From positions 19,892 to 83,891 of IMG/VR virus record IMGVR_UViG_3300009104_000009: a DNA stretch of 64,000 bases, one strand, 5' to 3'. Positions within the stretch are counted from its first letter, which is position 1. The number at the start of each line of letters is the position of its first letter. The position numbers and the translations under genes are program-made. Below are positions 15,231 through 51,700 of the stretch, in pieces. The notes under the pieces were generated by a model that did not search any database, was not told the origin of the DNA, and was given only the letters and a program-made list of their open reading frames with translations. This DNA is from a virus.

Positions 15231-16673
15231 ATGTGTGGATTTTTTGGTATAAGCGATAGATCTCTAATTGATACAGATTTAAATGACGTAAATGAGAGAG
15301 GCGAATTTAGCTTCTCTTATTATGGTCATGACCGGTCATTTTTTCATCAAAGTGTTCTCCCCGTTACTGGAACTTTTCCAGGCCAACAAGTATTTAATGT
15401 AGATGATTATTATTTTACTTACACAGGTGAAATATATAATGCTCCTACAAAAGGTTATGCCAATGATACAGAATGGTTAGCAGAAAAAATAAGAAGACAA
15501 GATTATAATTTTGATGATGTAAACGGCCAATATGCTATTTCTGTTTATGATAAGAAAAATTCCACTATAACACTAATTAGAGATCCTATAGGTCAAGTAC
15601 CTCTTTTTTATTATAATAAAAATTGTTTGATTTTTAGTAATACAATAAAATCTATAGCAACAACTGTTAAAACAAAATTAGATAAGGATTTCCTTAAACG
15701 TTGGCATCAATTACGGCATTATACATTAGATAAAACTCACTATAAAGATATTAAGTTATTTCCTAAAGGTTTAATAATAACTTATAACATGCGCGGTAAA
15801 GCCCTTAAATCGCGCATTATTAAGCCAAAACGAATATATGATGGTAATATATTGAAACTATTAAAAAACATGAAACAACCGTATTTAAGCCATCGAGTTA
15901 ATTGCGGAATAGTTTCAGGCGGAGTAGATAGTTCTATTGTATCGGCTCTTTTTAAAGATAAATTAGATTGTTATGTGACAACGATCAATAAAGATAAATG
16001 CTGGGCTTCAGCCGATGTTGAAAAATATGGATTTCCAGATTCTTTAAAAGAAGTTAAAAATGATGAAAAACAATGGTGTGAAGCCGCAATAGAATATATT
16101 CAAAAATCTTATATGATTCCTTATACGTGGAGTTATGTTGGTTATTATATAATGGGTAAAGCAATGAAGCCTTATGCAAAAGTAATGGTGACAGGTGAAG
16201 GAGCAGATGAAATATTTGGAGGATATGATTTATATAAAAGTAATAAACTTTCCAAATATTCTAAAGTAACTGATGGAAAATTTTTAAATGCTAAATATAA
16301 GCAACAAATCGGAAAACAAATCTCAAAATTTAATAATGTAGCACAAGCAAATAAGTATTTGGATCAAAGATCCTTTCTCCCCTGTGCGGCAATTGGTGCA
16401 AATTTAGCATTAGGAATGAATTGTATAGAAGCCCGGAATCCCTTTTTAGATCATTCTGTATTCTATAATGATGCTTTTATAGAAGATGTTGGAAAAGAAA
16501 GATTAGTAAAAATATTTAAAGATGTATTTGGTTTTGATCCACCAAAAAAACAAGGTTTTTCTGGTTATATGAATGAATTATACAATTACTTTAATAGTTC
16601 ATATGAGGAGATTGATTCAAAAGATATAGGTCTTTGGAAAGATGCTTGTTATCAAATTATGGAAAACACATGA
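15231..16673 (+). CDS. asparagine synthetase B-like glutamine amidotransferase
   Basis: N-terminal MCG (Ntn Cys), GEIYN, RDPIGQVPLFY, SGGVDSS, TGEGADEIFGGY, EARNPFLD. Confidence 0.88.
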   Translation: MCGFFGISDRSLIDTDLNDVNERGEFSFSYYGHDRSFFHQSVLPVTGTFPGQQVFNVDDYYFTYTGEIYNAPTKGYANDTEWLAEKIRRQDYNFDDVNGQYAISVYDKKNSTITLIRDPIGQVPLFYYNKNCLIFSNTIKSIATTVKTKLDKDFLKRWHQLRHYTLDKTHYKDIKLFPKGLIITYNMRGKALKSRIIKPKRIYDGNILKLLKNMKQPYLSHRVNCGIVSGGVDSSIVSALFKDKLDCYVTTINKDKCWASADVEKYGFPDSLKEVKNDEKQWCEAAIEYIQKSYMIPYTWSYVGYYIMGKAMKPYAKVMVTGEGADEIFGGYDLYKSNKLSKYSKVTDGKFLNAKYKQQIGKQISKFNNVAQANKYLDQRSFLPCAAIGANLALGMNCIEARNPFLDHSVFYNDAFIEDVGKERLVKIFKDVFGFDPPKKQGFSGYMNELYNYFNSSYEEIDSKDIGLWKDACYQIMENT

Positions 16674-31363: not shown

Positions 31364-32396
31364 TGGTTGGGATCCGCTAAAAGAAGTAATAGTTGGTGAC
31401 GCATCTAATGCTATAATTCCTTCATTTGAATTATCCATGAAAAATTTCATGTATGCAAATTTAAGTGAAGAGCAAATTAATTCTATAACAGGTCCATATG
31501 ATAAGCAAGTTATAGAAGAAACTAATGAGGACTTGGAATTATTATGTAGAGTTTTAGAAAGTCAGGATATAAAAGTTTATAGACCAAAAAAGATTAATCA
31601 TAAAAGAAGGTCTATGACTCCTCATTGGATTGCGCAGGGGTGGTGTACTTATTGTCCGCGTGATATATTTTTAGTACTAAATGATTGTATAATTGAAACG
31701 CCCAATGTTATGCGTAGCCGATATTTTGAGATGCATGCATATAGACATATTTTGAATCAATGTAAAGGTAAATGGTTCTCCGCGCCTAGGCCTCAGTTAT
31801 TAGATGAATCATTTAATTTTGATGATTTATCAAAACCAACATTGATGAATAAAGAAGCTCTTTTTGATGCTCCAAATGTTGTAAGAATGGGTAGAGACTT
31901 AATATATCAAGTGAGTAATAGCGGTAATGAAAAAGGAGGTGAATGGCTCCAATCAATGTTTCCGGAATATAAAATACATATAGAAAGAGAATCATATTCA
32001 GGAGCTCATTTTGATAGCACGGTGATACCATTAAGACCTGGATTAGTATTATTAAACGGTCAACGATGCACTCCAAAAAATTATCCGAAGATATTTAAGA
32101 ATTGGGATAAAATATTCTTTACTGATATAGTAGATCAAGGTATCCCAAGTGCCGGCGGATCATCCAATGCCAGTGCAGCTATCTCATCACCTGCAATAGG
32201 ATTAAACTTATTAAGTATTAATGAAAAAGTATGTATTGTAGATGAAAATCAACTTCCTCTTATTACGAAATTAAGAGATCACAACATTGATGCAATCCCT
32301 ATGCGTTTAAGACATGCAAAAACTTTAGGCGGAGGCTTTCATTGTGTAACATTAGATTTAAACAGAACTGGTACTTTACAACAGTATGACTTCTAA
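31344..32396 (+). CDS. amidinotransferase (glycine / inosamine-phosphate StrB1-like)
   Basis: WDPLKEVIVG, YCPRD, FDAPN, HFDST, LGGGFHCVTLD catalytic motifs. Confidence 0.92.
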   Translation: MNIQSNNGWDPLKEVIVGDASNAIIPSFELSMKNFMYANLSEEQINSITGPYDKQVIEETNEDLELLCRVLESQDIKVYRPKKINHKRRSMTPHWIAQGWCTYCPRDIFLVLNDCIIETPNVMRSRYFEMHAYRHILNQCKGKWFSAPRPQLLDESFNFDDLSKPTLMNKEALFDAPNVVRMGRDLIYQVSNSGNEKGGEWLQSMFPEYKIHIERESYSGAHFDSTVIPLRPGLVLLNGQRCTPKNYPKIFKNWDKIFFTDIVDQGIPSAGGSSNASAAISSPAIGLNLLSINEKVCIVDENQLPLITKLRDHNIDAIPMRLRHAKTLGGGFHCVTLDLNRTGTLQQYDF

Positions 32397-34182
32397 ACGT
32401 ATTGCGTTCGTAGAACTCTCACATATTTTTACTAATCAGATTAAATTACCCTATTCTACGGGTTGTATCTGGAGTTATTGTAAAACTGATAAAGAGATTA
32501 CCGATAGTTACTCTTTTGATGTTCATGATTGGATATATGTTCTAGATGAAAATTTAGATATCAATAAAACTGCTAAACAATTATCAAAATGTGATGTTGT
32601 AGGTATTTCGTATTTTGTATGGAATACTCATGTTAGTGATAAGTTAGCTAAACAAATAAGATACATAAATCCTAAGTGTGTGATCATATATGGTGGATTA
32701 GGTATACCAAAATACGGTCGATGCGAAAAGTTTCTCAAAGACAGGCCTTATATCGACGTTATAGTACATAATGAAGGCGAGATAGTATTTAAGAATATAT
32801 TGAAAGCTTTACATCGAAAAGAGGATTTAAGAAATGTTAAAGGAATCACAACACCTTTCTTTTCAACACCCTTAGAAGAAAGAGTAAAAGATATATCATC
32901 TATGCCTAGTCCATATCTTGATGGATTATTTGATGATCTCCTAGCAATTAAAAATCATTCATATGAGTGGGAGAGTTTAGTAGAATTAGAACGAGGTTGT
33001 CCTTATACATGCACATTCTGCGAAGTTGGAGATAGGCATTGGACGAAGATATTTAAACAGGATTATAATAAGTTAGTAAGAGAAATTGATTGGGTATCAG
33101 ATAAGAAGATAGAGTATCTACATCTAATTGATAATAACTTTGGTATGTATAAAGAGCAAAAAGTTATATCCGACTTACTTATAGATAAGTATAAATTGAC
33201 TGGTTATCCTAATGCTCTTAATATAACGTGGGCAAAGCATAAGAAACCATTCTTATTTGATATAGCAGAAGATTTATGGAAGGTAGGGCTCAATAAGAGT
33301 GTTACGATCGCTCTACAGTCGATGAATTCTTCTACATTAAAAGCGATCGAAAGAGCAAATGAAAATACTAATTTAAGAGAGGTATTAGCAAATTTAAAAT
33401 GGAGAGGTATGCCTGCTTATATAGAAACTATTCTCGGCCTACCAGAGGAATCATTAGATAGTTTTAAAGAAGGAATATATAGATTGATTGACGATATAAA
33501 TTATCATAATTATATCGGCATATATGTAATGGTTGCATTACCTAATACTCCATTTGGCGATCCTGAATATCTCAAAAAATATAATGTACAAATAAAGCAA
33601 ACATCCCCCGCATTTTTTCATCATGAAAATCCCCCAGATCAATTATTAGAAGAAGTCAATAACGTAGTCGTTGGATCTAACAGTATGACATTTGATGATT
33701 ACTTAGAAGCAACAGGGTGGAAGTGGTTTATGATATCTCTACATTTTTTAGGATGGCTTAGAATATTAGCATTAGAATTAAAAAATAATCATAACATATC
33801 AATGAGAGAGTTTTATAACGGATTATTCGAATGGTTTATTAATAATGATCAAACATTATTGTATAGAGAATATACAATTACAATGAGAATGTTAAAGAAA
33901 GTGTTTAATAGAGAGATTCCATGGGGTCGTAAAGTATCGGATGTTTCTAATATATACTGGGAGTATGAAGAAGCCACAGCAATACACATTGCTAAAGAAA
34001 AGAATCGTTTCTATGGAGAGATAGAAGATTATTTAAAAGAAGAATATGGATTTAATTATTCTATAACAACGAATCAATATAACAAGATGAAAGACCCTTA
34101 CGAAGTCTATAACGGCGATTTAGAAAAATGGGCTCGTGAATGCATGTGGTGGGGTCGAAGAGCGGAGAGGTTTTTCGTATGA
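32386..34182 (+). CDS. B12-binding radical SAM enzyme
   Basis: LPYSTG, SYFVWN, GG, EGE (B12 domain), followed by RGCPYTCTFC, DNNFG and ILGLPEE. Confidence 0.9.
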   Translation: MTSKRIAFVELSHIFTNQIKLPYSTGCIWSYCKTDKEITDSYSFDVHDWIYVLDENLDINKTAKQLSKCDVVGISYFVWNTHVSDKLAKQIRYINPKCVIIYGGLGIPKYGRCEKFLKDRPYIDVIVHNEGEIVFKNILKALHRKEDLRNVKGITTPFFSTPLEERVKDISSMPSPYLDGLFDDLLAIKNHSYEWESLVELERGCPYTCTFCEVGDRHWTKIFKQDYNKLVREIDWVSDKKIEYLHLIDNNFGMYKEQKVISDLLIDKYKLTGYPNALNITWAKHKKPFLFDIAEDLWKVGLNKSVTIALQSMNSSTLKAIERANENTNLREVLANLKWRGMPAYIETILGLPEESLDSFKEGIYRLIDDINYHNYIGIYVMVALPNTPFGDPEYLKKYNVQIKQTSPAFFHHENPPDQLLEEVNNVVVGSNSMTFDDYLEATGWKWFMISLHFLGWLRILALELKNNHNISMREFYNGLFEWFINNDQTLLYREYTITMRMLKKVFNREIPWGRKVSDVSNIYWEYEEATAIHIAKEKNRFYGEIEDYLKEEYGFNYSITTNQYNKMKDPYEVYNGDLEKWARECMWWGRRAERFFV

Positions 34183-37645: not shown

Positions 37646-38482
37646 ATGTCAGAAAATCTTCAAGAAAAACCCGCATTTTGCGATATACCTGGCGGTCCTA
37701 GGGATCCAAATCTTAAAGCACGATGTGCAAAGCCTGATGCTCCCGCCGCGCCTAAAAAACCTGCTGACATTAGATCTAAAGCTCTAACGGACACGGAAAA
37801 GAAAAGAAAAAGAATACAGAGTTTGGGTCTTACACATGAAAGTGAAAAGAAAGAATCTTTCAAGCAATTCAAAGATAGAATTACATTGGAAGCAAATTTA
37901 AATGATTACGTTAAAAAATATAAAATGAAAATGGGTGATAAAACTTCTACAGTAGATAAAGATAAATGGGTTGAAGGTATTGGTGGATTAACTAAGAGAG
38001 AGCAAGCAACCCTAAAACGTGTATTACAAGGACATACCAGAGAAGGTGTAAAGGAAGACGCTGAATTTGCTGATGAGTTAGAATTAGTAGAATTAGCTCC
38101 GGTAATAGGTCTTGCAATAAGGGGTGCCGCGGCTGCTACAAAAACACCGATTAGACGAGCAATTACGAAGCATGTAGTAAAAAAAGCAGTAAACAAAGCA
38201 ACCTCACCTCCTCCACCTTCAAATAATGAAGAAGTAGTAAATGAGAGTAAGGAACTTCAAGCTAAGATGGCGTTAGATGATGCAAAGATTAAGTATAAAG
38301 TAGAAGATGGTAAGATATATGTGGATAAAAAAGATCTTATGAAAGCTGAAAAGACCGTAGCAAAATCATTTAGAGTTAAGCCTAGAAACTTAGATGGGAA
38401 AAAATATCCCGCATTATATTATCACGGCGGAAGTTTAGGCATATGGAATAAGAAAAGACCTATAACAGGAATGGGTAGATGA
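37646..38482 (+). CDS. probable internal head protein (modular)
   Basis: Internal ESFKQFKDRITLEA motif and E-bounded basic modules. Confidence 0.5.
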   Translation: MSENLQEKPAFCDIPGGPRDPNLKARCAKPDAPAAPKKPADIRSKALTDTEKKRKRIQSLGLTHESEKKESFKQFKDRITLEANLNDYVKKYKMKMGDKTSTVDKDKWVEGIGGLTKREQATLKRVLQGHTREGVKEDAEFADELELVELAPVIGLAIRGAAAATKTPIRRAITKHVVKKAVNKATSPPPPSNNEEVVNESKELQAKMALDDAKIKYKVEDGKIYVDKKDLMKAEKTVAKSFRVKPRNLDGKKYPALYYHGGSLGIWNKKRPITGMGR

Positions 38483-38976
38483 GAACGTTTATAGAACATG
38501 TAATAATTGAACAAGAATTACGTATGGATAGAGAATTGCAAAATATTCTTATGATTCATGCTAAAGATTATAAATTATTCAGAGAAGGTAAACAGGAACT
38601 ATCAGAGTTACCTCATTTGTATAATGATTTAGTAAAACATTGGCAGACAGATATGCCGTACGGAGTAACAAAAGCCCGTGAGGGTGACCCCTATGAATGG
38701 ATTGCGAACAAATTGAATAGTATTGAAGAACACGGTGAGCCAATGCCAAAGTCATTAGTTCACAATTGAGCTACACACGTTAAACATCCAAGTTTGGGTG
38801 ATGAAGAATTAGAAGTAATAAGTCACAGTTTAGATGAAGATGGTAGAATAGAACAATACAGAGTTAAACCGCCACGCAATGCTCAAATTGGTTCAACAGT
38901 AGTTCTGCAAGCAGAAGAAGTTACTGTAACTAGAGAGCACAGTCACAAACACAAGGTAAAACCCAAAATTAAATAA
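38479..38976 (+). CDS. putative selenoprotein (165 aa, Sec97) with capsid-targeting-like N-terminus; joins ORF-track 38479-38769 and 38794-38976
   Basis: The TGA at 38767-38769 is followed by an open frame (ATHVKHPSLGDEELEVISHSLDEDGRIEQYRV...) and a SECIS-like hairpin at 38785-38800. Confidence 0.7.
38785..38800 (+). promoter_or_regulatory. SECIS-like hairpin
   Basis: CAUCCA-AGUU-UGGGUG begins 15 nt after the UGA, with the loop G at +23. Confidence 0.65.
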
Positions 38977-39170: not shown

Positions 39171-39710
39171 ATGGATTTATTAAAACATACATACAGCAAT
39201 CTATCCCCTTATAAAAATCACGAGCAAAAATTATATAAGAAGGGCGACAACTGGTATAAAGAAGTCCGTGAAGGATATTTCGATGATTTTGATATTGAAG
39301 CCTTACGTACATATATCGAAGTATATGATTTTATAGACCCTCCAATAACATTGGAATTGGAAGACGGTGTTTTTAAATATGAATGTAGAGACTTATCTAA
39401 GACACATAAACAACTCATAGATATCCCATATAATCGTCAAATCAAAATTCTCGGTAAATTGTTATCAGAGGTAATGCATTCTTTTTTAGAGTTCTCTGAA
39501 GCAAGAGGGAAAGTAGATATTCCAACGCCCAGTAATCCAACAGGAAAAAAAATTTTTTGTCACAGAGACTTAGCTTTTCATAATATCTATGTCGCTGGTG
39601 ATGATATTAAACTAATAGATATTGATTCGTTTATGTGGACTAACAGAGGCGATTTCAAATCCTACTATCAATATACTCTTTTAAGATTGGCACAGCATTT
39701 TGATCACTAA
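39171..39710 (+). CDS. protein-kinase-like phosphotransferase (APH/choline kinase type)
   Basis: CHRDLAFHNIYV...IKLIDID. Confidence 0.7.
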   Translation: MDLLKHTYSNLSPYKNHEQKLYKKGDNWYKEVREGYFDDFDIEALRTYIEVYDFIDPPITLELEDGVFKYECRDLSKTHKQLIDIPYNRQIKILGKLLSEVMHSFLEFSEARGKVDIPTPSNPTGKKIFCHRDLAFHNIYVAGDDIKLIDIDSFMWTNRGDFKSYYQYTLLRLAQHFDH

Positions 39711-40830
39711 ACCTTGCCTAGCACCTTTTAACTCAATTTTTCATAATTATGATGGTGCTACTTCTGTATGCTGTCACAGACCTGTTGAGATCACAGGTAA
39801 GACCCTACACGAGAGCATGCACGATGAGAAACTACAAGCAATAAGAAGAAGTTTCGCTAAAGGAGAGACACCTCCAGAGTGTCGGTTATGTCCTAAGCAG
39901 ATGAGAGAGTATCATACTGAGAATATCTCTAAGAATATTAAAAGTATTTCATTAGAAAATAAGTTCACTCCAGTAGCTGTAGATTTCTTCTGGTCTAATA
40001 AGTGTAATTTCGCATGCTTAGGGTGTGATAGTTATAAGAGCTCAACAATTGATAAGAATTTTAGAGAGATATATGAGATAATAGATCATCAGAGGCCTGT
40101 TCCTAATATAGGATATGATAAGCAAGAGAGATTTGATTATATACTAGAAAATTCCGACAGTATTAGAATAATGCATTTATCGAGTTCCGGAGAACCATGG
40201 ATTGAAGATAATATCTATGAGTTATTAGAGCTCTTAGTAGAGCATAAGTTATTTAACATTGAAATAGCGACCCATACTAATGGAAGTATATTGAATTATA
40301 AGAATAAGAGTATGATTGATATATTAGATAATTGGAATGGTAACGCAACTGTTATAATGAGTAATGACGGTACAGGAAAAAGAGGAGAGTATGTCAGATA
40401 TGGTTATAAAGATAAAATGTGGTTAAGGACGTATAATAAACTAAAAGAATCTAGCATTAACGTATATGTTCACTACTGTATGAACTTATTCAATATAATG
40501 TATCTCAGAGAAGATGCAGAATGGTTTAAAGAGAATTGTGATGATACTGATATACTCTTAAGATATTGGGAATGGCCTTCTTTATTAACGTCTAAGTTTT
40601 TAAAATATTGGGGTGATTTGTATGACGAATCAATTGATTCATTCAATAGCGCGAAATCCTATTATAAGGATTCGGAGTATGCTGAAGATTACCTAAATAC
40701 TATAGGGAGAGGAAATAATTTTAAAGATGATGTTTCGCGATTTAGTTCATTTATACAGAAGATAGATGAAAAAAGAAATACTGATTTTGTAAAAACTTTT
40801 CCAAAGTTGAATGAGATTGTTTTATGGTAG
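39700..40830 (+). CDS. radical SAM protein with N-terminal SPASM/twitch-like Cys cluster
   Basis: C.APF...VCC...ECRLC; CNFACLGC; SGEP; TNG. Confidence 0.85.
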   Translation: MITKPCLAPFNSIFHNYDGATSVCCHRPVEITGKTLHESMHDEKLQAIRRSFAKGETPPECRLCPKQMREYHTENISKNIKSISLENKFTPVAVDFFWSNKCNFACLGCDSYKSSTIDKNFREIYEIIDHQRPVPNIGYDKQERFDYILENSDSIRIMHLSSSGEPWIEDNIYELLELLVEHKLFNIEIATHTNGSILNYKNKSMIDILDNWNGNATVIMSNDGTGKRGEYVRYGYKDKMWLRTYNKLKESSINVYVHYCMNLFNIMYLREDAEWFKENCDDTDILLRYWEWPSLLTSKFLKYWGDLYDESIDSFNSAKSYYKDSEYAEDYLNTIGRGNNFKDDVSRFSSFIQKIDEKRNTDFVKTFPKLNEIVLW

Positions 40831-41504
40831 ATAATTTAAAAGAGATTATTCACAAATCTCAAATATGTCAAAGAAATTGGGATTTGAGTGAAGAGATCCC
40901 TCAAGAGCATGTTGATTTAATTGTAGAAGCAGTTACACAAAGCCCCACCCGTCAAAATATCCCGTTCTATAATGTAGATGTTGTTACAGACAGATCTTTA
41001 ATCAACAGTATCCATAATAATTCTGCTTTTTTTAAAATTAAACCAGGTATGGAGTTATCAGAATATTCTCACGCTGTCGTTAGGGGTTCAGATGTAGAGA
41101 AGGATGAAGATGGTGTTATCACAAAAACTAATCCTCAAGTGCTAGCTCCCTTATTACTTGTTTTTAGTGCTAATGAAGAGACTTATTACGATAATCAGTT
41201 ACGACATGGTAAAGACTCTGCGGAACGTGTTAAGTGGGAAAAAGACGTAAGCCTTTCTATAGGCGTAGCATCTGGATTTGCAAAACTAATATCTACACAA
41301 TTAGGATATGTAAGTGGTTTTTGCGCTTGTTATGGTGAAGAAATAGATAAACTAATAGGATCTTCGGTACGGTTATTTCTTGGGATAGGAAAGCCTGATA
41401 AAAACAAGAAATATACAGAGAGTCATATTGAGGAATTTGAATATCCCAGCTTTAAAGATGTAAAGAGATTAAAACCTGTAAAAGTAGAGTGGCATAATGG
41501 CTAA
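40824..41504 (+). CDS. nitroreductase-family protein
   Basis: SQICQRNWD, SPTRQN, SIGVASG...LGYVSGFCAC, LGIG; paralog of 59021. Confidence 0.78.
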   Translation: MVDNLKEIIHKSQICQRNWDLSEEIPQEHVDLIVEAVTQSPTRQNIPFYNVDVVTDRSLINSIHNNSAFFKIKPGMELSEYSHAVVRGSDVEKDEDGVITKTNPQVLAPLLLVFSANEETYYDNQLRHGKDSAERVKWEKDVSLSIGVASGFAKLISTQLGYVSGFCACYGEEIDKLIGSSVRLFLGIGKPDKNKKYTESHIEEFEYPSFKDVKRLKPVKVEWHNG

Positions 41505-41730
41505 ATGGAAAATCAGATATTGTAGTTCTTGAAACTACAAACCGAACGCAGAAAGTCTTTCTGCTGAAATGAAAAAATTAGGTTATGACGTTGAAATTGA
41601 ACAAGGAGATACTGGACAATTTGAGCTATTTAAATGGTCCACCACATTGTGGATGTCATTTATGAAAGGTGGACATGGAAAGTTCTTTGGAATACAGGAA
41701 GTGACGGAGGCATTAACTAATACGGAGTAA
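41497..41730 (+). CDS. Rdx / SelW-SelT-SelH family selenoprotein (77 aa, CSSU; missing from ORF track)
   Basis: MAKWKIRYCSS-UGA-NYKPNAESLSAEMKKLGYDVEIEQGDTGQFELF...GKF. This is the Rdx IxYCxxU.Y...A..L and GxFE(V/L) pattern, and the gene exactly fills an intergenic gap. Confidence 0.9.
41548..41564 (+). promoter_or_regulatory. SECIS-like hairpin
   Basis: GCAGAA-AGUCU-UUCUGC begins 15 nt after the UGA (41530-41532), with the loop G at +23. Confidence 0.8.
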
Positions 41731-41732
41731 AT

Positions 41733-42161
41733 ATGGTTTTTGGACTTGGAGATCAAGAAGAACAGAGAACTAAAGAATTATTTGTAAGTAAGAATTTTAA
41801 ATCACATTCAGGATTAGACTTAACATGGAAAATAGAGATGGACGCGTTAATGGATTCCGAATGGTTTACGATCAAGAAAATGATCATGGAGATAACACCT
41901 CCTTTTAGAGAAGCAGTCGGTATTCCACGTGGTGGAGTTAAGCTCGGCAATCTTCTCAACGAACACGCAACAGGGAAAAAAGAAGATCCTATTTGTATAG
42001 TAGATGATGTATTAACTACAGGTGAGTCAATGGAAGAATTTTTAACACAATATCAACGTAATCGCGAACCATTTACAGCGATCGGTTGGGTAGTATTTGC
42101 GAGAACACAATGTCCGTCATGGGTAAACGCGGTATTTCAAATGCCATATTTAGCTGTATAG
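41733..42161 (+). CDS. pyrE: orotate phosphoribosyltransferase-like (PRTase type I)
   Basis: FKSHSG, GIPRGG, IVDDVLTTGES PRPP-binding loop; near pyrD and pyrF. Confidence 0.7.
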   Translation: MVFGLGDQEEQRTKELFVSKNFKSHSGLDLTWKIEMDALMDSEWFTIKKMIMEITPPFREAVGIPRGGVKLGNLLNEHATGKKEDPICIVDDVLTTGESMEEFLTQYQRNREPFTAIGWVVFARTQCPSWVNAVFQMPYLAV

Positions 42162-42529
42162 TATTAATGATTACCAGTTGTACTATGTGGAAGCATATTC
42201 AAGATAGTAGTGATTATTTAGAAACTGGATATATGCCATGTCCAGAAGGCGAGAAGTGCTTAGACTTGACATCAAGAATGGGTGGATTAGAAGGAGATAT
42301 TTTTAAAACACTACCACCCATAAAAGGTTGGAAACAAATGGGATGCGTGCATTCTAAGCAAATAGATTATGAGATGAAAGAAGAATTTATGTATTGTGAA
42401 TATTGTAATGGAAAACATCAGATGTGGATGATATATGATTATGACTGGGAGGGTAAATACGGAGTTCCAGATTGGTATCCTCATACACCAGATAATACAG
42501 AATGCGGCGATCCACCATTTATTAAATGA
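42086..42529 (+). CDS. hypothetical (lipo)protein; start uncertain
   Basis: Hydrophobic stretch followed by ITSC; Cys-rich. Confidence 0.5.
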   Translation: MGSICENTMSVMGKRGISNAIFSCIVLMITSCTMWKHIQDSSDYLETGYMPCPEGEKCLDLTSRMGGLEGDIFKTLPPIKGWKQMGCVHSKQIDYEMKEEFMYCEYCNGKHQMWMIYDYDWEGKYGVPDWYPHTPDNTECGDPPFIK

Positions 42530-49383: not shown

Positions 49384-50342
49384 AAATTATCGCAGGTAAT
49401 TCAAATAAGGATTTAGCTTTATCAATTGCTCAATATTGTAAACAACCATTATGTGAAATAGAATTAGTTAAATTTGCTGACAATGAAGTGTCATGTATGA
49501 TCAAAGAGAATGTGCGTGGCGAAGATGTATTCATTATTCAGAGTACGTGTAATCCTGCTAATGATCATTTAATGGAGATGTTGGTATTAATAGATGCTTG
49601 TAGGAGAGCATCAGTTAAAAGTGTAACAGCGGTGATTCCTTATTTCGGTTATGCAAGACAAGATAGAAAACCTGTTTCCAGAACACCTATAACATCTAAA
49701 TTAGTAGCTAAGATGTTAGAAGCGGCAGGTGCTGATAGAATAGTAACAATGGATTTACATGCCGGACAGATACAAGGGTTCTTTAATATTCCGGTGGATG
49801 ATTTAAGTTCAAAGCCTTTGTTCGTAGAGGACCTGAAAGCTGGAAGAGAATGGGGTGATATTGAACAAGTAATAATTTCTCCGGATGCTGGTGGAGTTGC
49901 TAGAGCAAGAAAGGTTGCAAAGAAATTAGATCTGGAAATAGCGATCATTGATAAACGTAGAGAAAAAGCTAATCAAGTTGCATCAATGAATGTTATTGGA
50001 GATGTAGAAGGAAAGAGATGTGTTATTGTTGATGATATAATTGATACAGGTGGAACACTTATTCAAGCAGCAGAAGCATTATTAGAAAGAGGTGCTGAAT
50101 CTGTTGAAGCATATATAACACATGGAGTTTTAAGTAAAGGTGGAAAACAAAGAATAGAAGAATCTGAAGCTATAACTAAATTAGTAATAACAGATACAAT
50201 ACCAAATAGTGAATCGTGGATTAATCCTGAAAGACAATTACCAGCTATACAAGCAGTAAGGATATTACCAGTGGCACCTGTATTTGCTGAAGCGATTAGA
50301 AGAATAAATCATAATGAATCAATTTCGATATTATTTGAATGA
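49380..50342 (+). CDS. prs: ribose-phosphate pyrophosphokinase
   Basis: FADNEV, PYFGYARQDRK, DLHAGQIQGFF, SPDAGG, VDDIIDTGGT. Confidence 0.97.
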   Translation: MKIIAGNSNKDLALSIAQYCKQPLCEIELVKFADNEVSCMIKENVRGEDVFIIQSTCNPANDHLMEMLVLIDACRRASVKSVTAVIPYFGYARQDRKPVSRTPITSKLVAKMLEAAGADRIVTMDLHAGQIQGFFNIPVDDLSSKPLFVEDLKAGREWGDIEQVIISPDAGGVARARKVAKKLDLEIAIIDKRREKANQVASMNVIGDVEGKRCVIVDDIIDTGGTLIQAAEALLERGAESVEAYITHGVLSKGGKQRIEESEAITKLVITDTIPNSESWINPERQLPAIQAVRILPVAPVFAEAIRRINHNESISILFE

Positions 50343-51700
50343 ATCCTAAAACACATCCGACATATTGTCACTATCCATTTAAAGCCATGACTTTTAAGAA
50401 GTGGTCTAAGGATGGTAAGAGACCTATTAATGTTACACCTTGCTGTATGATGATGAATCCTGTAGAGCAAGAAGATGAGGAACCGGATAAGCATTATAAT
50501 ATGGGGCTTACCGAAGATGTGTTAAAGGGAAAGAATCCTTTAGAAATATTTAATTCGGAACCATATGAAAAGCTAAGAAATGATTTATCAAATGGTATAA
50601 AGAATGAAGCATGTACTGTTTGCTGGAAACAAGAAGAAGACGGTTTAGAATCATTTAGACAATGTTCTGATTTATATGGTGGTTCTGAAGGTTTATTTGA
50701 GTTTGACATAACCCTTTCTAACCTATGCAATTTAGCGTGTAGAATGTGCAATATGGGAAGTTCTCACCAAATAGGTAAGGATATAAAGGAATTGATCAAG
50801 ACAGGTTATTATGATGACTTTCAGGAGGCTAGCAATAGAGCAATGCCACAAGAGAAAGGTGTTGTATATGATTCTTCTTCAAATGATGTTATTGATTGGT
50901 TGATGAATAATACTCATCAGATAACAATGTTGAAAGCATCTGGTGGAGAACCTTTTTACGATAGAAGAGTTATAAAGGTATTAGAAAAATATGCTAAAGA
51001 TGGAACTGCAAAGAATACAACATTAAAGTTTCATACTAATGCTACTCAGTTTACACCCGAGTTAGCAAATTTATTAAATGAATTTAAAAGTCAAAATCAT
51101 ACGTTTAGTATAGATGGTACAGGTAAGGTTTATAATTATATTCGACATCTATCTGATTGGGATAAATTAAATGAGAGTCTAGATAATTATTTCAGTACAT
51201 GTACTAATATCGACAATCAATATTTTAATATGGTATTGTCTGGTCTTAATGTTTTAAATGCGGCTGACTATATAGAATGGGTTTGTAATAAATGTGAATA
51301 TTATAATGTTCCTAATTACTATATACATTTTTCAGAAATTTTTCCATATAATAGAGGAACAGCAGTTAGGAATGTATATAATCATTTGTTAGAAAAAGCT
51401 CTAGATAGAATTATAGAAATTATAGATGATGGTATAGCGTATGTTGCTCCTTCAGATACAGTTCAAGCTACTATAAGGGGCAAAGAATATAAAGCATGGT
51501 ATAGATTTGATTTACATAATCTAGTAGCACAAATACAAAACGGTATAAAGTTTGGTAATGGTACCTTTAAAAAATTAAAAGTAGAAACTGTTCTCCTAGA
51601 TCATGTTAGAGATCAGTGGTATGGGGATTACTTAGATAGAGACTTAACCGATCACTTAATTAAAGAGATTGTTATGCATCCCGATATACCGACGTTTTAA
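50339..51700 (+). CDS. radical SAM protein with SPASM/twitch-like Cys cluster
   Basis: YCHYPF, PCC, ACTVCW, CNLACRMC, SGGEPF, HTN, SIDG. Confidence 0.88.
   Translation: MNPKTHPTYCHYPFKAMTFKKWSKDGKRPINVTPCCMMMNPVEQEDEEPDKHYNMGLTEDVLKGKNPLEIFNSEPYEKLRNDLSNGIKNEACTVCWKQEEDGLESFRQCSDLYGGSEGLFEFDITLSNLCNLACRMCNMGSSHQIGKDIKELIKTGYYDDFQEASNRAMPQEKGVVYDSSSNDVIDWLMNNTHQITMLKASGGEPFYDRRVIKVLEKYAKDGTAKNTTLKFHTNATQFTPELANLLNEFKSQNHTFSIDGTGKVYNYIRHLSDWDKLNESLDNYFSTCTNIDNQYFNMVLSGLNVLNAADYIEWVCNKCEYYNVPNYYIHFSEIFPYNRGTAVRNVYNHLLEKALDRIIEIIDDGIAYVAPSDTVQATIRGKEYKAWYRFDLHNLVAQIQNGIKFGNGTFKKLKVETVLLDHVRDQWYGDYLDRDLTDHLIKEIVMHPDIPTF

What the first reader, a model, noticed from the sequence alone, without database searches (positions are those of the whole stretch)
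41497..41730. Unannotated Rdx/SelW-type selenoprotein (CSSU) between a nitroreductase and pyrE
The sequence reads IRYCSS-U-NYKPNAESL...GDTGQFELF, the canonical Rdx-family CxxU thioredoxin-like pattern. The gene overlaps the upstream stop and ends 2 nt before the next start, filling the gap exactly. The hairpin loop AGUCU resembles the E. coli fdhF SECIS loop. Inference: a redox helper for the neighbouring radical SAM and nitroreductase genes or for nucleotide synthesis.
Basis: partly seen in the sequence, partly recalled or inferred. Interest (0 to 1): 0.8.

Follow-up and report, generated by a model that had tools for sequence, protein, structure and literature searches.

The report
Selenoprotein gene in a marine phage
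An uncultured marine T4-like phage carries a small SelW-type redox-protein gene whose internal UGA "stop" is almost certainly read as selenocysteine by the host's machinery, and I found no paper that reports a selenoprotein encoded by a virus of bacteria.

Summary
Window 41497-41730 (+) reads MAKWKIRYCSSU... if the TGA at 41530-41532 is decoded. The 77-residue product passes Pfam's Rdx threshold. It folds as a beta-alpha-beta-beta-beta-alpha thioredoxin-like domain, and its best structural matches are bacterial SelW-related proteins.

TGA is an ordinary stop in this genome (30 of 80 ORFs). Yet 96 of 100 related gene copies from marine viral and metagenomic contigs keep TGA at this codon. Three have CGA, one has TTA, and none has a Cys codon.

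A 17-nt hairpin (GCAGAAAGUCUUUCUGC) lies 15 nt after the UGA. It is kept in nearly all copies and is under synonymous-codon constraint. It has decayed in the one paralog that lost the TGA. A second, unrelated in-frame-UGA gene (38479-38976) carries a hairpin at the same spacing.

The contig is a T4-like myovirus with no tRNA-Sec, so decoding must rely on a Sec-competent bacterial host, which remains unidentified.

Those neighbours are not conserved beside the gene, and the "nitroreductase" label has no family support.

This scan has already reported the same kind of gene on at least six other phage genomes. I found no published description.

The parts
41497..41730 (+). SelW-like (Rdx family) selenoprotein gene, 77 codons plus TAA, motif C9-S-S-U12
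   Evidence: Translation. Pfam PF10262 scores 31 bits, above the gathering score of 22.6. The AF2 model has pLDDT 88.6 with a b-a-b-b-b-a order. The Foldseek top hits are bacterial SelW-related structures. 61 distinct Sec-containing homologues were found.
41530..41532 (+). In-frame UGA read as selenocysteine (U12)
   Evidence: TGA is kept in 96 of 100 homologous copies, with 0 Cys codons. It aligns with the second Cys of CxxC in MIEN1 and in the Vibrio SelW-related protein 2p0g. TGA is otherwise a normal stop in this genome.
41548..41564 (+). SECIS-like hairpin GCAGAAA-GUC-UUUCUGC, 15 nt after the UGA; the loop G is at +23
   Evidence: Fold. 96.9% of cells are paired across 14 diverse loci. 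Synonymous constraint on its codons. Mean -7.4 kcal/mol over 42 distinct variants; decayed (-3.0) in the TTA paralog of L077. A register-shifted variant with compensating changes exists.
41520..41540 (+). Possible second hairpin UUGUAGUU-CUUGA-AACUACAA that holds the UGA in its loop (function unproven)
   Evidence: Predicted in the MFE fold. 93.8% of cells are paired. However, the 5' arm is all G/U, so any transition in the 3' arm keeps pairing. The Gly codon GGA, which breaks one pair, occurs in 8 of 64 copies. This is therefore no real covariation evidence.
38479..38976 (+). Second, unrelated candidate selenoprotein gene of the same phage. UGA at 38767-38769 (..LVHNU..); hairpin CAUCCA-AGUU-UGGGUG at 38785-38800, also 15 nt after the UGA
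   Evidence: The descriptor scan finds only these two genes on the coding strand of the 84-kb record. The L029 homologue keeps the UGA and the hairpin, with a U.G to C-G change.

Best explanation
This is a real phage gene for a 77-residue SelW-like (Rdx-family) selenoprotein.

Shown or strongly supported by comparison:
- The ribosome starts at the ATG at 41497.
- At UGA 41530-41532 the mRNA hairpin 15 nt downstream (41548-41564, G in the apical loop at +23) has the position and shape of a bacterial SECIS.
- The codon and the hairpin are conserved together.
- The product has the Rdx fold, with C-x-x-U in the loop between strand 1 and helix 1.

Inferred:
- The hairpin recruits the host's SelB.GTP.Sec-tRNA(Sec), so selenocysteine is inserted instead of termination.
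- The phage brings no tRNA-Sec of its own, so it depends on a host that has selA, selB, selC and selD.
- The protein acts as a thiol/selenol oxidoreductase during infection. Its substrate is unknown. The complete lack of Cys forms suggests that selenium chemistry itself is required.
For: - Pfam Rdx hit above threshold, and sub-threshold hits to NCBIfam SelT/W/H models.
- The AF2 model has pLDDT 88.6. The 11 best PDB fold matches are all bacterial SelW-related proteins, with TM 0.64-0.69.
- Of 100 gene copies, 96 have TGA, 3 CGA, 1 TTA and 0 a Cys codon, at 44-70% protein identity.
- The frame upstream of the UGA is under purifying selection. I, Y, C and G are invariant while their codons vary.
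- 23 of 61 distinct genes have no ATG at +13. In 18 of these the first possible start codon of any kind lies 33 or more codons after U, so most of the conserved protein could not be made without reading the UGA.
- Hairpin: 96.9% paired. Leu is CTT in 57 of 63 copies, against five Leu codons in the TGQFELF block. Ser is AGT in 56 of 56. Synonymous diversity is 0-0.21, against 0.53-0.79 for the same amino acids elsewhere.
- The hairpin is lost in the TTA paralog.
- The UGA-to-loop distance is 22 nt, inside the 16-37 nt range given for bacterial SECIS (PMC10778597).
- A second gene carries a hairpin with the same geometry. A descriptor scan gave 70 coding-strand hits (67 SelW, 2 of the second family, 1 other) against 7 on the non-coding strand.
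- TGA is a normal stop in this genome.
- The record has T4-type terminase, sheath, portal, scaffold and major head genes.
Against: - There is no direct evidence of selenium incorporation.
- The host is unknown, so the presence of its Sec machinery is assumed.
- The hairpin shows little true both-sides covariation. The columns are too conserved, and shuffles reach the observed scores in 70-176 of 500 trials.
- The fold energy alone is only modestly unusual (z = -2.07).
- No Rfam SECIS family matches.
- The protein falls below both NCBIfam cut-offs.
- The cultured phage with the closest gp46 infects OM43, and this marine T4-like group also carries S21 like the SAR11 myophages. A preprint reports that 135 Pelagibacter genomes lack selC, so SAR11 would be an unsuitable host.
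Confidence: 0.85

Rival explanations
1. The UGA is read through, but not as selenocysteine. It would be decoded by near-cognate tRNA (Trp or Cys) or by a phage suppressor tRNA encoded in the unsequenced half of the genome. The product would be a CxxW or CxxC protein.
For: The record is only about 46% complete. Some database gene calls print W at this position. Leaky UGA decoding is known in bacteria (my own knowledge).
Against: The codon sits exactly at the Sec/Cys redox position of the Rdx family. A conserved hairpin with SECIS geometry follows it. TGA terminates 30 of 80 ORFs here. A related record rated 100% complete (134.5 kb) has no tRNA-Sec, and its best near-hit is an ordinary tRNA-Tyr. 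The W-containing calls all come from contigs of 0.5-1.3 kb, probably called with another genetic code. If Cys were acceptable, TGT or TGC should appear among 100 copies, and none does.
Confidence: 0.06
2. The UGA terminates translation. The locus would be a decayed or split gene, and only a downstream ORF (41569-41730, 53 aa) or nothing at all would be expressed.
For: Gene callers annotate only the 51-58 aa downstream pieces. The window has an ATG 13 codons after the UGA.
Against: The 11 codons before the UGA keep their amino acids while their codons vary across 61 distinct genes. 23 of 61 genes have no ATG at +13, and in 18 of these the first possible start codon of any kind lies 33 or more codons after U. 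Shine-Dalgarno-like GGAG motifs precede the upstream ATG in many loci. A pseudogene would not keep TGA in 96% of copies at 44-70% identity.
Confidence: 0.03
3. The machinery is not a bacterial host's. Either the virus infects marine Nitrososphaerales archaea, or the phage carries its own Sec machinery in the missing part of the genome.
For: The only hit among 185,579 species genomes is a 2.2-kb contig binned in a Nitrososphaerales MAG from Station ALOHA. The window's record is incomplete.
Against: The record has a T4-type structural module. Its major head protein is 66% identical, and its gp46 47-50% identical, to those of phages of Synechococcus, Prochlorococcus, OM43 and Stenotrophomonas. 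That MAG has no tRNA-Sec above threshold, and a 2.2-kb contig is easily mis-binned. An in-ORF hairpin directly after the UGA is the bacterial layout, whereas archaeal SECIS lie in UTRs (PMC10778597). The 100%-complete relative has no tRNA-Sec.
Confidence: 0.04

Closest known systems
Bacterial SelW-like selenoproteins (Rdx family: Pfam PF10262; NCBIfam TIGR02174 CXXU_selWTH and NF041051 SelTWH_Campy). Solved Cys-form relatives: 2fa8, 2p0g, 3dex, 2oka, 2obk, 2ojl.
   Same: - About 75 residues, with a b-a-b-b-b-a thioredoxin-like fold.
- C-x-x-U between strand 1 and helix 1, followed by [NG]-Y-x-P-x-A and a G-x-F-E motif.
- In-ORF SECIS hairpin.
- Strong preference for Sec over Cys. The GOS survey counted 427 Sec and 56 Cys forms and ranked this the most abundant marine selenoprotein family (PMC2398784).
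   Different: - Encoded by T4-like phages.
- Forms its own clade, separated from bacterial-type sequences by a long, well-supported branch (100/96).
- Has TGQFELF and S-[FY]-M-K..G-K-F-F in place of the bacterial GG-x-FEV and FSK..GRFP motifs.
- Scores below both NCBIfam cut-offs.
- No Cys form among 100 copies.
Bacterial in-ORF SECIS elements (type case E. coli fdhF; the 5/6-bp 'apical' hairpins of Epsilonproteobacteria described in PMC4607533)
   Same: A short hairpin lies a few nucleotides after the UGA, inside the ORF. It has a G(U) in the apical loop, and the UGA-to-loop distance (22 nt) is within the 16-37 nt range.
   Different: The spacer is 15 nt, against 11 nt for the minimal fdhF element, and there is no bulged U (the fdhF details are from my own memory and were not checked here). 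No Rfam model matches. Binding to any SelB is untested.
Selenoproteins of eukaryotic viruses (glutathione peroxidase homologues of molluscum contagiosum virus and fowlpox virus; from my own knowledge and the review PMC6769590 listed)
   Same: A virus encodes a selenoprotein and relies on the host's Sec-insertion machinery.
   Different: Those are GPx enzymes with eukaryotic 3'-UTR-type SECIS in poxviruses. This is an Rdx-family protein with a bacterial-type in-ORF hairpin in a tailed phage.

Membership tests
Rdx / SelW-SelT-SelH family (Pfam PF10262) | Profile match above Pfam's gathering score | tested here: met
   31 bits against 22.6, E = 3.1e-7, residues 5-68 on profile positions 3-67 of 74.
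Rdx / SelW-SelT-SelH family (Pfam PF10262) | CxxC or CxxU redox motif in the loop between strand 1 and helix 1 of a thioredoxin-like b-a-b-b-b-a fold | tested here: met
   The AF2 model gives E3-8, H15-28, E31-36, E41-47, E52-59 and H66-76, with C9..U12 in the loop. U aligns with the second Cys of MIEN1 and 2p0g. The Foldseek top 11 hits are SelW-related structures.
NCBIfam TIGR02174 CXXU_selWTH / NF041051 SelTWH_Campy | Score above the curated cut-off | tested here: not met
   TIGR02174 scores 24.4 bits against 34.2. NF041051 scores 40.1 bits against 88. The protein is a divergent relative, not a member of these narrower models.
Bacterial-type selenoprotein gene | In-frame UGA conserved across homologues at a redox-active Cys/Sec position | tested here: met
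   96 of 100 copies have TGA. Bacterial-type relatives have C, or U read as W, at the same column.
Bacterial-type selenoprotein gene | SECIS hairpin inside the ORF, with the apical loop 16-37 nt after the UGA and a G in the loop | tested here: met
   15-nt spacer, 7-bp stem and GUC loop, with the G at +23. It is conserved and under synonymous constraint. The criterion is taken from PMC10778597.
Bacterial-type selenoprotein gene | Sec machinery (selA, selB, selC, selD) available in the cell where the gene is expressed | not testable with these tools
   The host is unknown. No tRNA-Sec is present in this record or in four related records, one of them rated complete.
Bacterial-type selenoprotein gene | Selenium demonstrated in the protein | not testable with these tools
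   This needs 75Se labelling or mass spectrometry.

The most novel reading that the evidence does not exclude
Marine T4-like phages carry a small 'selenoproteome' of their own: at least two unrelated gene families in this genome whose SECIS hairpins share one design (15-nt spacer, 6-7-bp stem, (A)GU loop) tuned to the host's SelB. [quoted passage not shown] Selenium use in the sea would be partly a phage trait, and the shared SECIS design could serve as a host-range marker.
Probability: 0.4. Interest if true: 0.85.

Novelty: new variant of a known kind. Interest (0 to 1): 0.78.

Why it matters
Selenoproteins are known from cells and from a few poxviruses. Five full-text searches found no paper that describes one encoded by a phage. 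A 2021 survey of marine trace-element proteins states that the selenoprotein families it examined lack viral sequences or have very few (PMC9402790).

A phage that pays the cost of inefficient UGA recoding, and never swaps Sec for Cys, implies a function that needs selenium chemistry during infection.

The finding also has practical consequences:
- Standard gene callers cut these genes. Only 51-58 aa fragments are in the databases.
- Hosts of this phage group should be limited to Sec-competent bacteria, which is a testable constraint on host assignment.
- It offers a compact natural UGA-plus-hairpin module for study.

Tried and rejected
- **Phage database searches:** DNA and protein searches of the INPHARED phage collection with the locus and the protein found nothing.
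- **First viral-contig scan:** A scan with the single protein failed. It worked only with an alignment.
- The DNA behind the database fragments P0002-P0004 and the Sec-less form P0008 could not be read.
- **Rfam:** It gave no SECIS match at gathering or relaxed thresholds.
- **Shuffle-based covariation test:** It was uninformative because the hairpin columns are nearly invariant. I relied instead on synonymous-codon constraint and on the decayed paralog.
- **Hairpin enclosing the UGA (41520-41540):** I considered it as part of the signal and set it aside as unproven. Its G/U-only 5' arm pairs with any transition in the 3' arm.
- **TGA-recoded genome:** Rejected, because TGA ends 30 of 80 ORFs.
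- **Host inference:** It failed by every route tried. Cluster members carry no taxonomy. The single genome hit is a short contig in an archaeal MAG without tRNA-Sec. The hallmark proteins are equidistant from cyanophages, OM43 phage Melnitz and a Stenotrophomonas phage.
- **Neighbour ORFs:** I ran no further search on them, because they are not syntenic with the gene elsewhere.

Full report
**1. Observation**

Window 41497-41730 (+) is open except for one TGA at 41530-41532. Read with TGA=U, it gives MAKWKIRYCSSUNYKPNAESLSAEMKKLGYDVEIEQGDTGQFELFKWSTTLWMSFMKGGHGKFFGIQEVTEALTNTE.
- The ATG overlaps the stop of the upstream ORF (40824-41504).
- The TAA ends 2 nt before the next ATG at 41733.
Its energy is -7.3 kcal/mol, z = -2.07 against shuffles.

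**2. What genome this is**

The window is bases 19892-83891 of an 83,891-nt IMG/VR virus record rated 46% complete.
- All long ORFs lie on one strand, and G+C is 35%.
- The 20 kb before the window encode large terminase, tail sheath, portal, scaffold and major head protein, in the T4 order.
- The major head protein is 66% identical to those of Prochlorococcus and Synechococcus myophages, the OM43 phage Melnitz and a Stenotrophomonas phage.
- The gp46-like nuclease is 47-50% identical to those of the cyanomyophages and Melnitz.

It is therefore a marine T4-like myovirus of a lineage with no cultured member.

TGA ends 30 of 80 ORFs of 80 or more codons, often in ATGA overlaps, so the genome is not TGA-recoded. 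The record has four tRNAs (Asn, Tyr, Gly, Asp) and no tRNA-Sec. Four related records, one rated 100% complete at 134.5 kb, also lack tRNA-Sec. The sub-threshold matches I checked with ARAGORN are ordinary tRNAs.

**3. The protein**

- Pfam Rdx (PF10262) matches at 31 bits, above its 22.6-bit threshold.
- The narrower NCBIfam models match below their cut-offs: NF041051 at 40.1 against 88, and TIGR02174 at 24.4 against 34.2.
- A family profile aligns the C-x-x-U with the CxxC of human MIEN1 and of the Vibrio SelW-related protein 2p0g.
- An AlphaFold2 model built on 56 sequences has mean pLDDT 88.6. Its order is strand-loop(CxxU)-helix-strand-strand-strand-helix.
- Its 11 best Foldseek matches in the PDB are all bacterial SelW-related proteins: 2fa8, 3dex, 2p0g, 2oka, 2obk and 2ojl, with TM 0.64-0.69.

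Membership in the Rdx family is therefore met. Membership in the two narrower NCBIfam models is not.

**4. Relatives**

Database proteins related to the query are only 51-58 aa fragments that start after the UGA. This shows that gene callers cut the gene.

Scans with family alignments found 17 viral contigs, 80 marine metagenome contigs (of 150 confirmed) and one contig in a genome collection.
- Among 100 gene copies, the codon is TGA in 96, CGA in 3 and TTA in 1. It is never TGT or TGC.
- 61 distinct Sec-containing proteins result. The 14 diverse copies aligned are 47-63% identical to the window's protein.
- The residues before the UGA (I-K-Y-C-G/S-S) are kept while their codons vary.
- 23 of 61 genes have no ATG at +13. 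In 18 of these the first possible start codon of any kind lies 33 or more codons after U, so most of the conserved protein could not be made from a downstream start.
- Many copies have GGAG-type motifs before the upstream ATG.

In a maximum-likelihood tree, the phage-context proteins plus five metagenome proteins form one clade. A 100/96 branch separates it from 14 bacterial-type SelW-like sequences. Three Sec-less derivatives (P0008, P0012, P0024) fall inside or next to that clade on long branches. They lost the U to deletion or to other residues, not to Cys.

**5. The RNA signal**

Across 14 diverse loci the 7-bp stem is paired in 96.9% of cells. The changes are G-C to G.U, A-U to G.U and one double change. 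Because the columns are nearly invariant, the shuffle control is uninformative. Stronger evidence comes from five other sources.

- **Codon choice.** The Leu in the stem is CTT in 57 of 63 copies, whereas the invariant Leu of TGQFELF uses five codons about evenly. The stem Ser is AGT in 56 of 56. Pairwise synonymous diversity is 0, 0, 0.16 and 0.21 for the stem codons E, S, L and S. For Leu elsewhere it is 0.53-0.79, and for Ser elsewhere 0.58-0.69.
- **A compensated variant.** The variant GCGACAAGUUUGUCCGC combines a Leu codon switch (CTT to TTG) with a Glu-to-Thr replacement. It refolds in a shifted register with an AGUU loop.
- **Fold energies.** Over 42 distinct variants the mean energy is -7.4 kcal/mol, and the loop G sits at +23 in nearly all.
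- **A natural control.** Contig L077 holds two paralogs. The copy with TGA has the hairpin. In the copy with TTA the hairpin is destroyed (-3.0 kcal/mol).
- **Position.** The UGA-to-loop distance of 22 nt lies in the 16-37 nt range given for bacterial SECIS (PMC10778597). Short 5/6-bp hairpins of this kind are described for epsilonproteobacterial SelW, SelD and Fdh genes (PMC4607533).

A second possible hairpin encloses the UGA (41520-41540). It is also mostly paired, but its G/U-only arm makes that uninformative.

**6. A second gene with the same signal**

I checked it.
- It has one in-frame UGA (38767-38769, ..LVHNU..).
- After exactly 15 nt comes the hairpin CAUCCA-AGUU-UGGGUG.

I then scanned for a simple descriptor: a TGA open on both sides, a 12-19 nt spacer, a stem of 6 bp or more, and GU early in the loop.
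- On the coding strand of the 84-kb record it finds only these two genes.
- A narrower version (13-17 nt spacer) run over 494 kb of related loci finds 70 coding-strand hits: 67 SelW, 2 of this second family and 1 other. The non-coding strand gives 7.
- In L029 the two genes lie about 1 kb apart, and the second family's stem shows a U.G to C-G change.

Two unrelated genes with one hairpin design fit recognition by one SelB.

**7. Context and function**

- None of 98 other loci keeps the radical SAM gene, ORF 40824-41504 or ORF 41733-42161 near the SelW-like gene.
- ORF 40824-41504 matches no family at all.
- ORF 41733-42161 has only a sub-threshold phosphoribosyltransferase signal.

Elsewhere the commonest neighbours are a ribosomal protein S21 gene directly downstream (18 loci), a glutaredoxin (22 loci) and an S-adenosylmethionine decarboxylase domain protein. 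The gene sits in a variable accessory region.

I infer a thiol/selenol oxidoreductase role from the fold and the motif. The substrate is unknown, as it is for bacterial SelW-like proteins.

**8. Host**

The host is unresolved.
- The only genome-collection hit is a 2.2-kb contig in a Nitrososphaerales MAG that has no tRNA-Sec above threshold. I read it as a mis-binned viral contig.
- A preprint reports that 135 complete Pelagibacter genomes lack selC, while Actinomarina carries full Sec machinery and an uncharacterised 78-aa selenoprotein family. The first point argues against SAR11 as host. The second is an untested lead.

**9. Literature**

The GOS study ranks SelW-like as the most abundant marine selenoprotein family, with 427 Sec and 56 Cys forms, and does not mention phages. 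A 2021 survey says the selenoprotein families it examined lack viral sequences or have very few. Five full-text searches found no report of a phage-encoded selenoprotein.

This scan has already reported the same kind of gene on at least six other phage genomes, and on this genome in another window. My conclusions rest on my own tests.

**10. Verdict**

This is a genuine SelW-like selenoprotein gene with a bacterial-type SECIS in a T4-like marine phage (confidence 0.85). It is a new, phage-borne and Sec-obligate variant of a known family. The proposed functional tie to the adjacent genes is not supported.

Noticed in passing
window 38479-38976: A second candidate selenoprotein with no family match (..LVHNU.., UGA at 38767). 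Its hairpin CAUCCA-AGUU-UGGGUG starts exactly 15 nt after the UGA. A homologue in L029 keeps both features and lies about 1 kb upstream of that phage's SelW-like gene.
   Followed up: partly
L077:1757-1987 and L077:2519-2833: Two SelW-like paralogs lie about 0.6 kb apart on one contig. One has TGA and an intact hairpin. The other has TTA (Leu), and its hairpin has decayed. The database cluster P0008 (8 members on 18 contigs) resembles the Sec-less copy.
   Followed up: partly
L047:1238-1471 and 17 other loci: A ribosomal protein S21 gene (PF01165) sits directly downstream of the SelW-like gene in 18 loci. A glutaredoxin gene (e.g. L060:2318-2557) lies within about 0.5 kb in 22 loci. An AdoMet decarboxylase domain protein is at L101:414-941.
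   Followed up: partly
L027 (JAKUSK010000076.1, 2240 nt): A contig that carries this phage-type SelW gene is binned in a Nitrososphaerales archaeon MAG from Station ALOHA. It is probably viral DNA mis-binned into the MAG.
   Followed up: partly
window 32386-34182, 39700-40830, 50339-51700: Three radical SAM genes are present: one with a B12-binding domain, and one that also gives a sub-threshold match to the SPASM domain. An asparagine synthase-like gene lies at 15231-16673. This is an unusual metabolic load for a T4-like phage.
   Followed up: no
window 41733-42161 and 42086-42529: Two same-strand ORFs overlap by 76 nt. The second starts at a TTG, so its true start is probably further downstream, or the pair hides a frameshift. 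Homologues of the second ORF occur in four related loci.
   Followed up: no
L089, L090, L093: Three metagenome copies have CGA (Arg) in place of TGA, with the hairpin intact (-8.5 kcal/mol). This is either a recent loss of Sec or a sequence variant. The database protein P0007 shows the same R.
   Followed up: no
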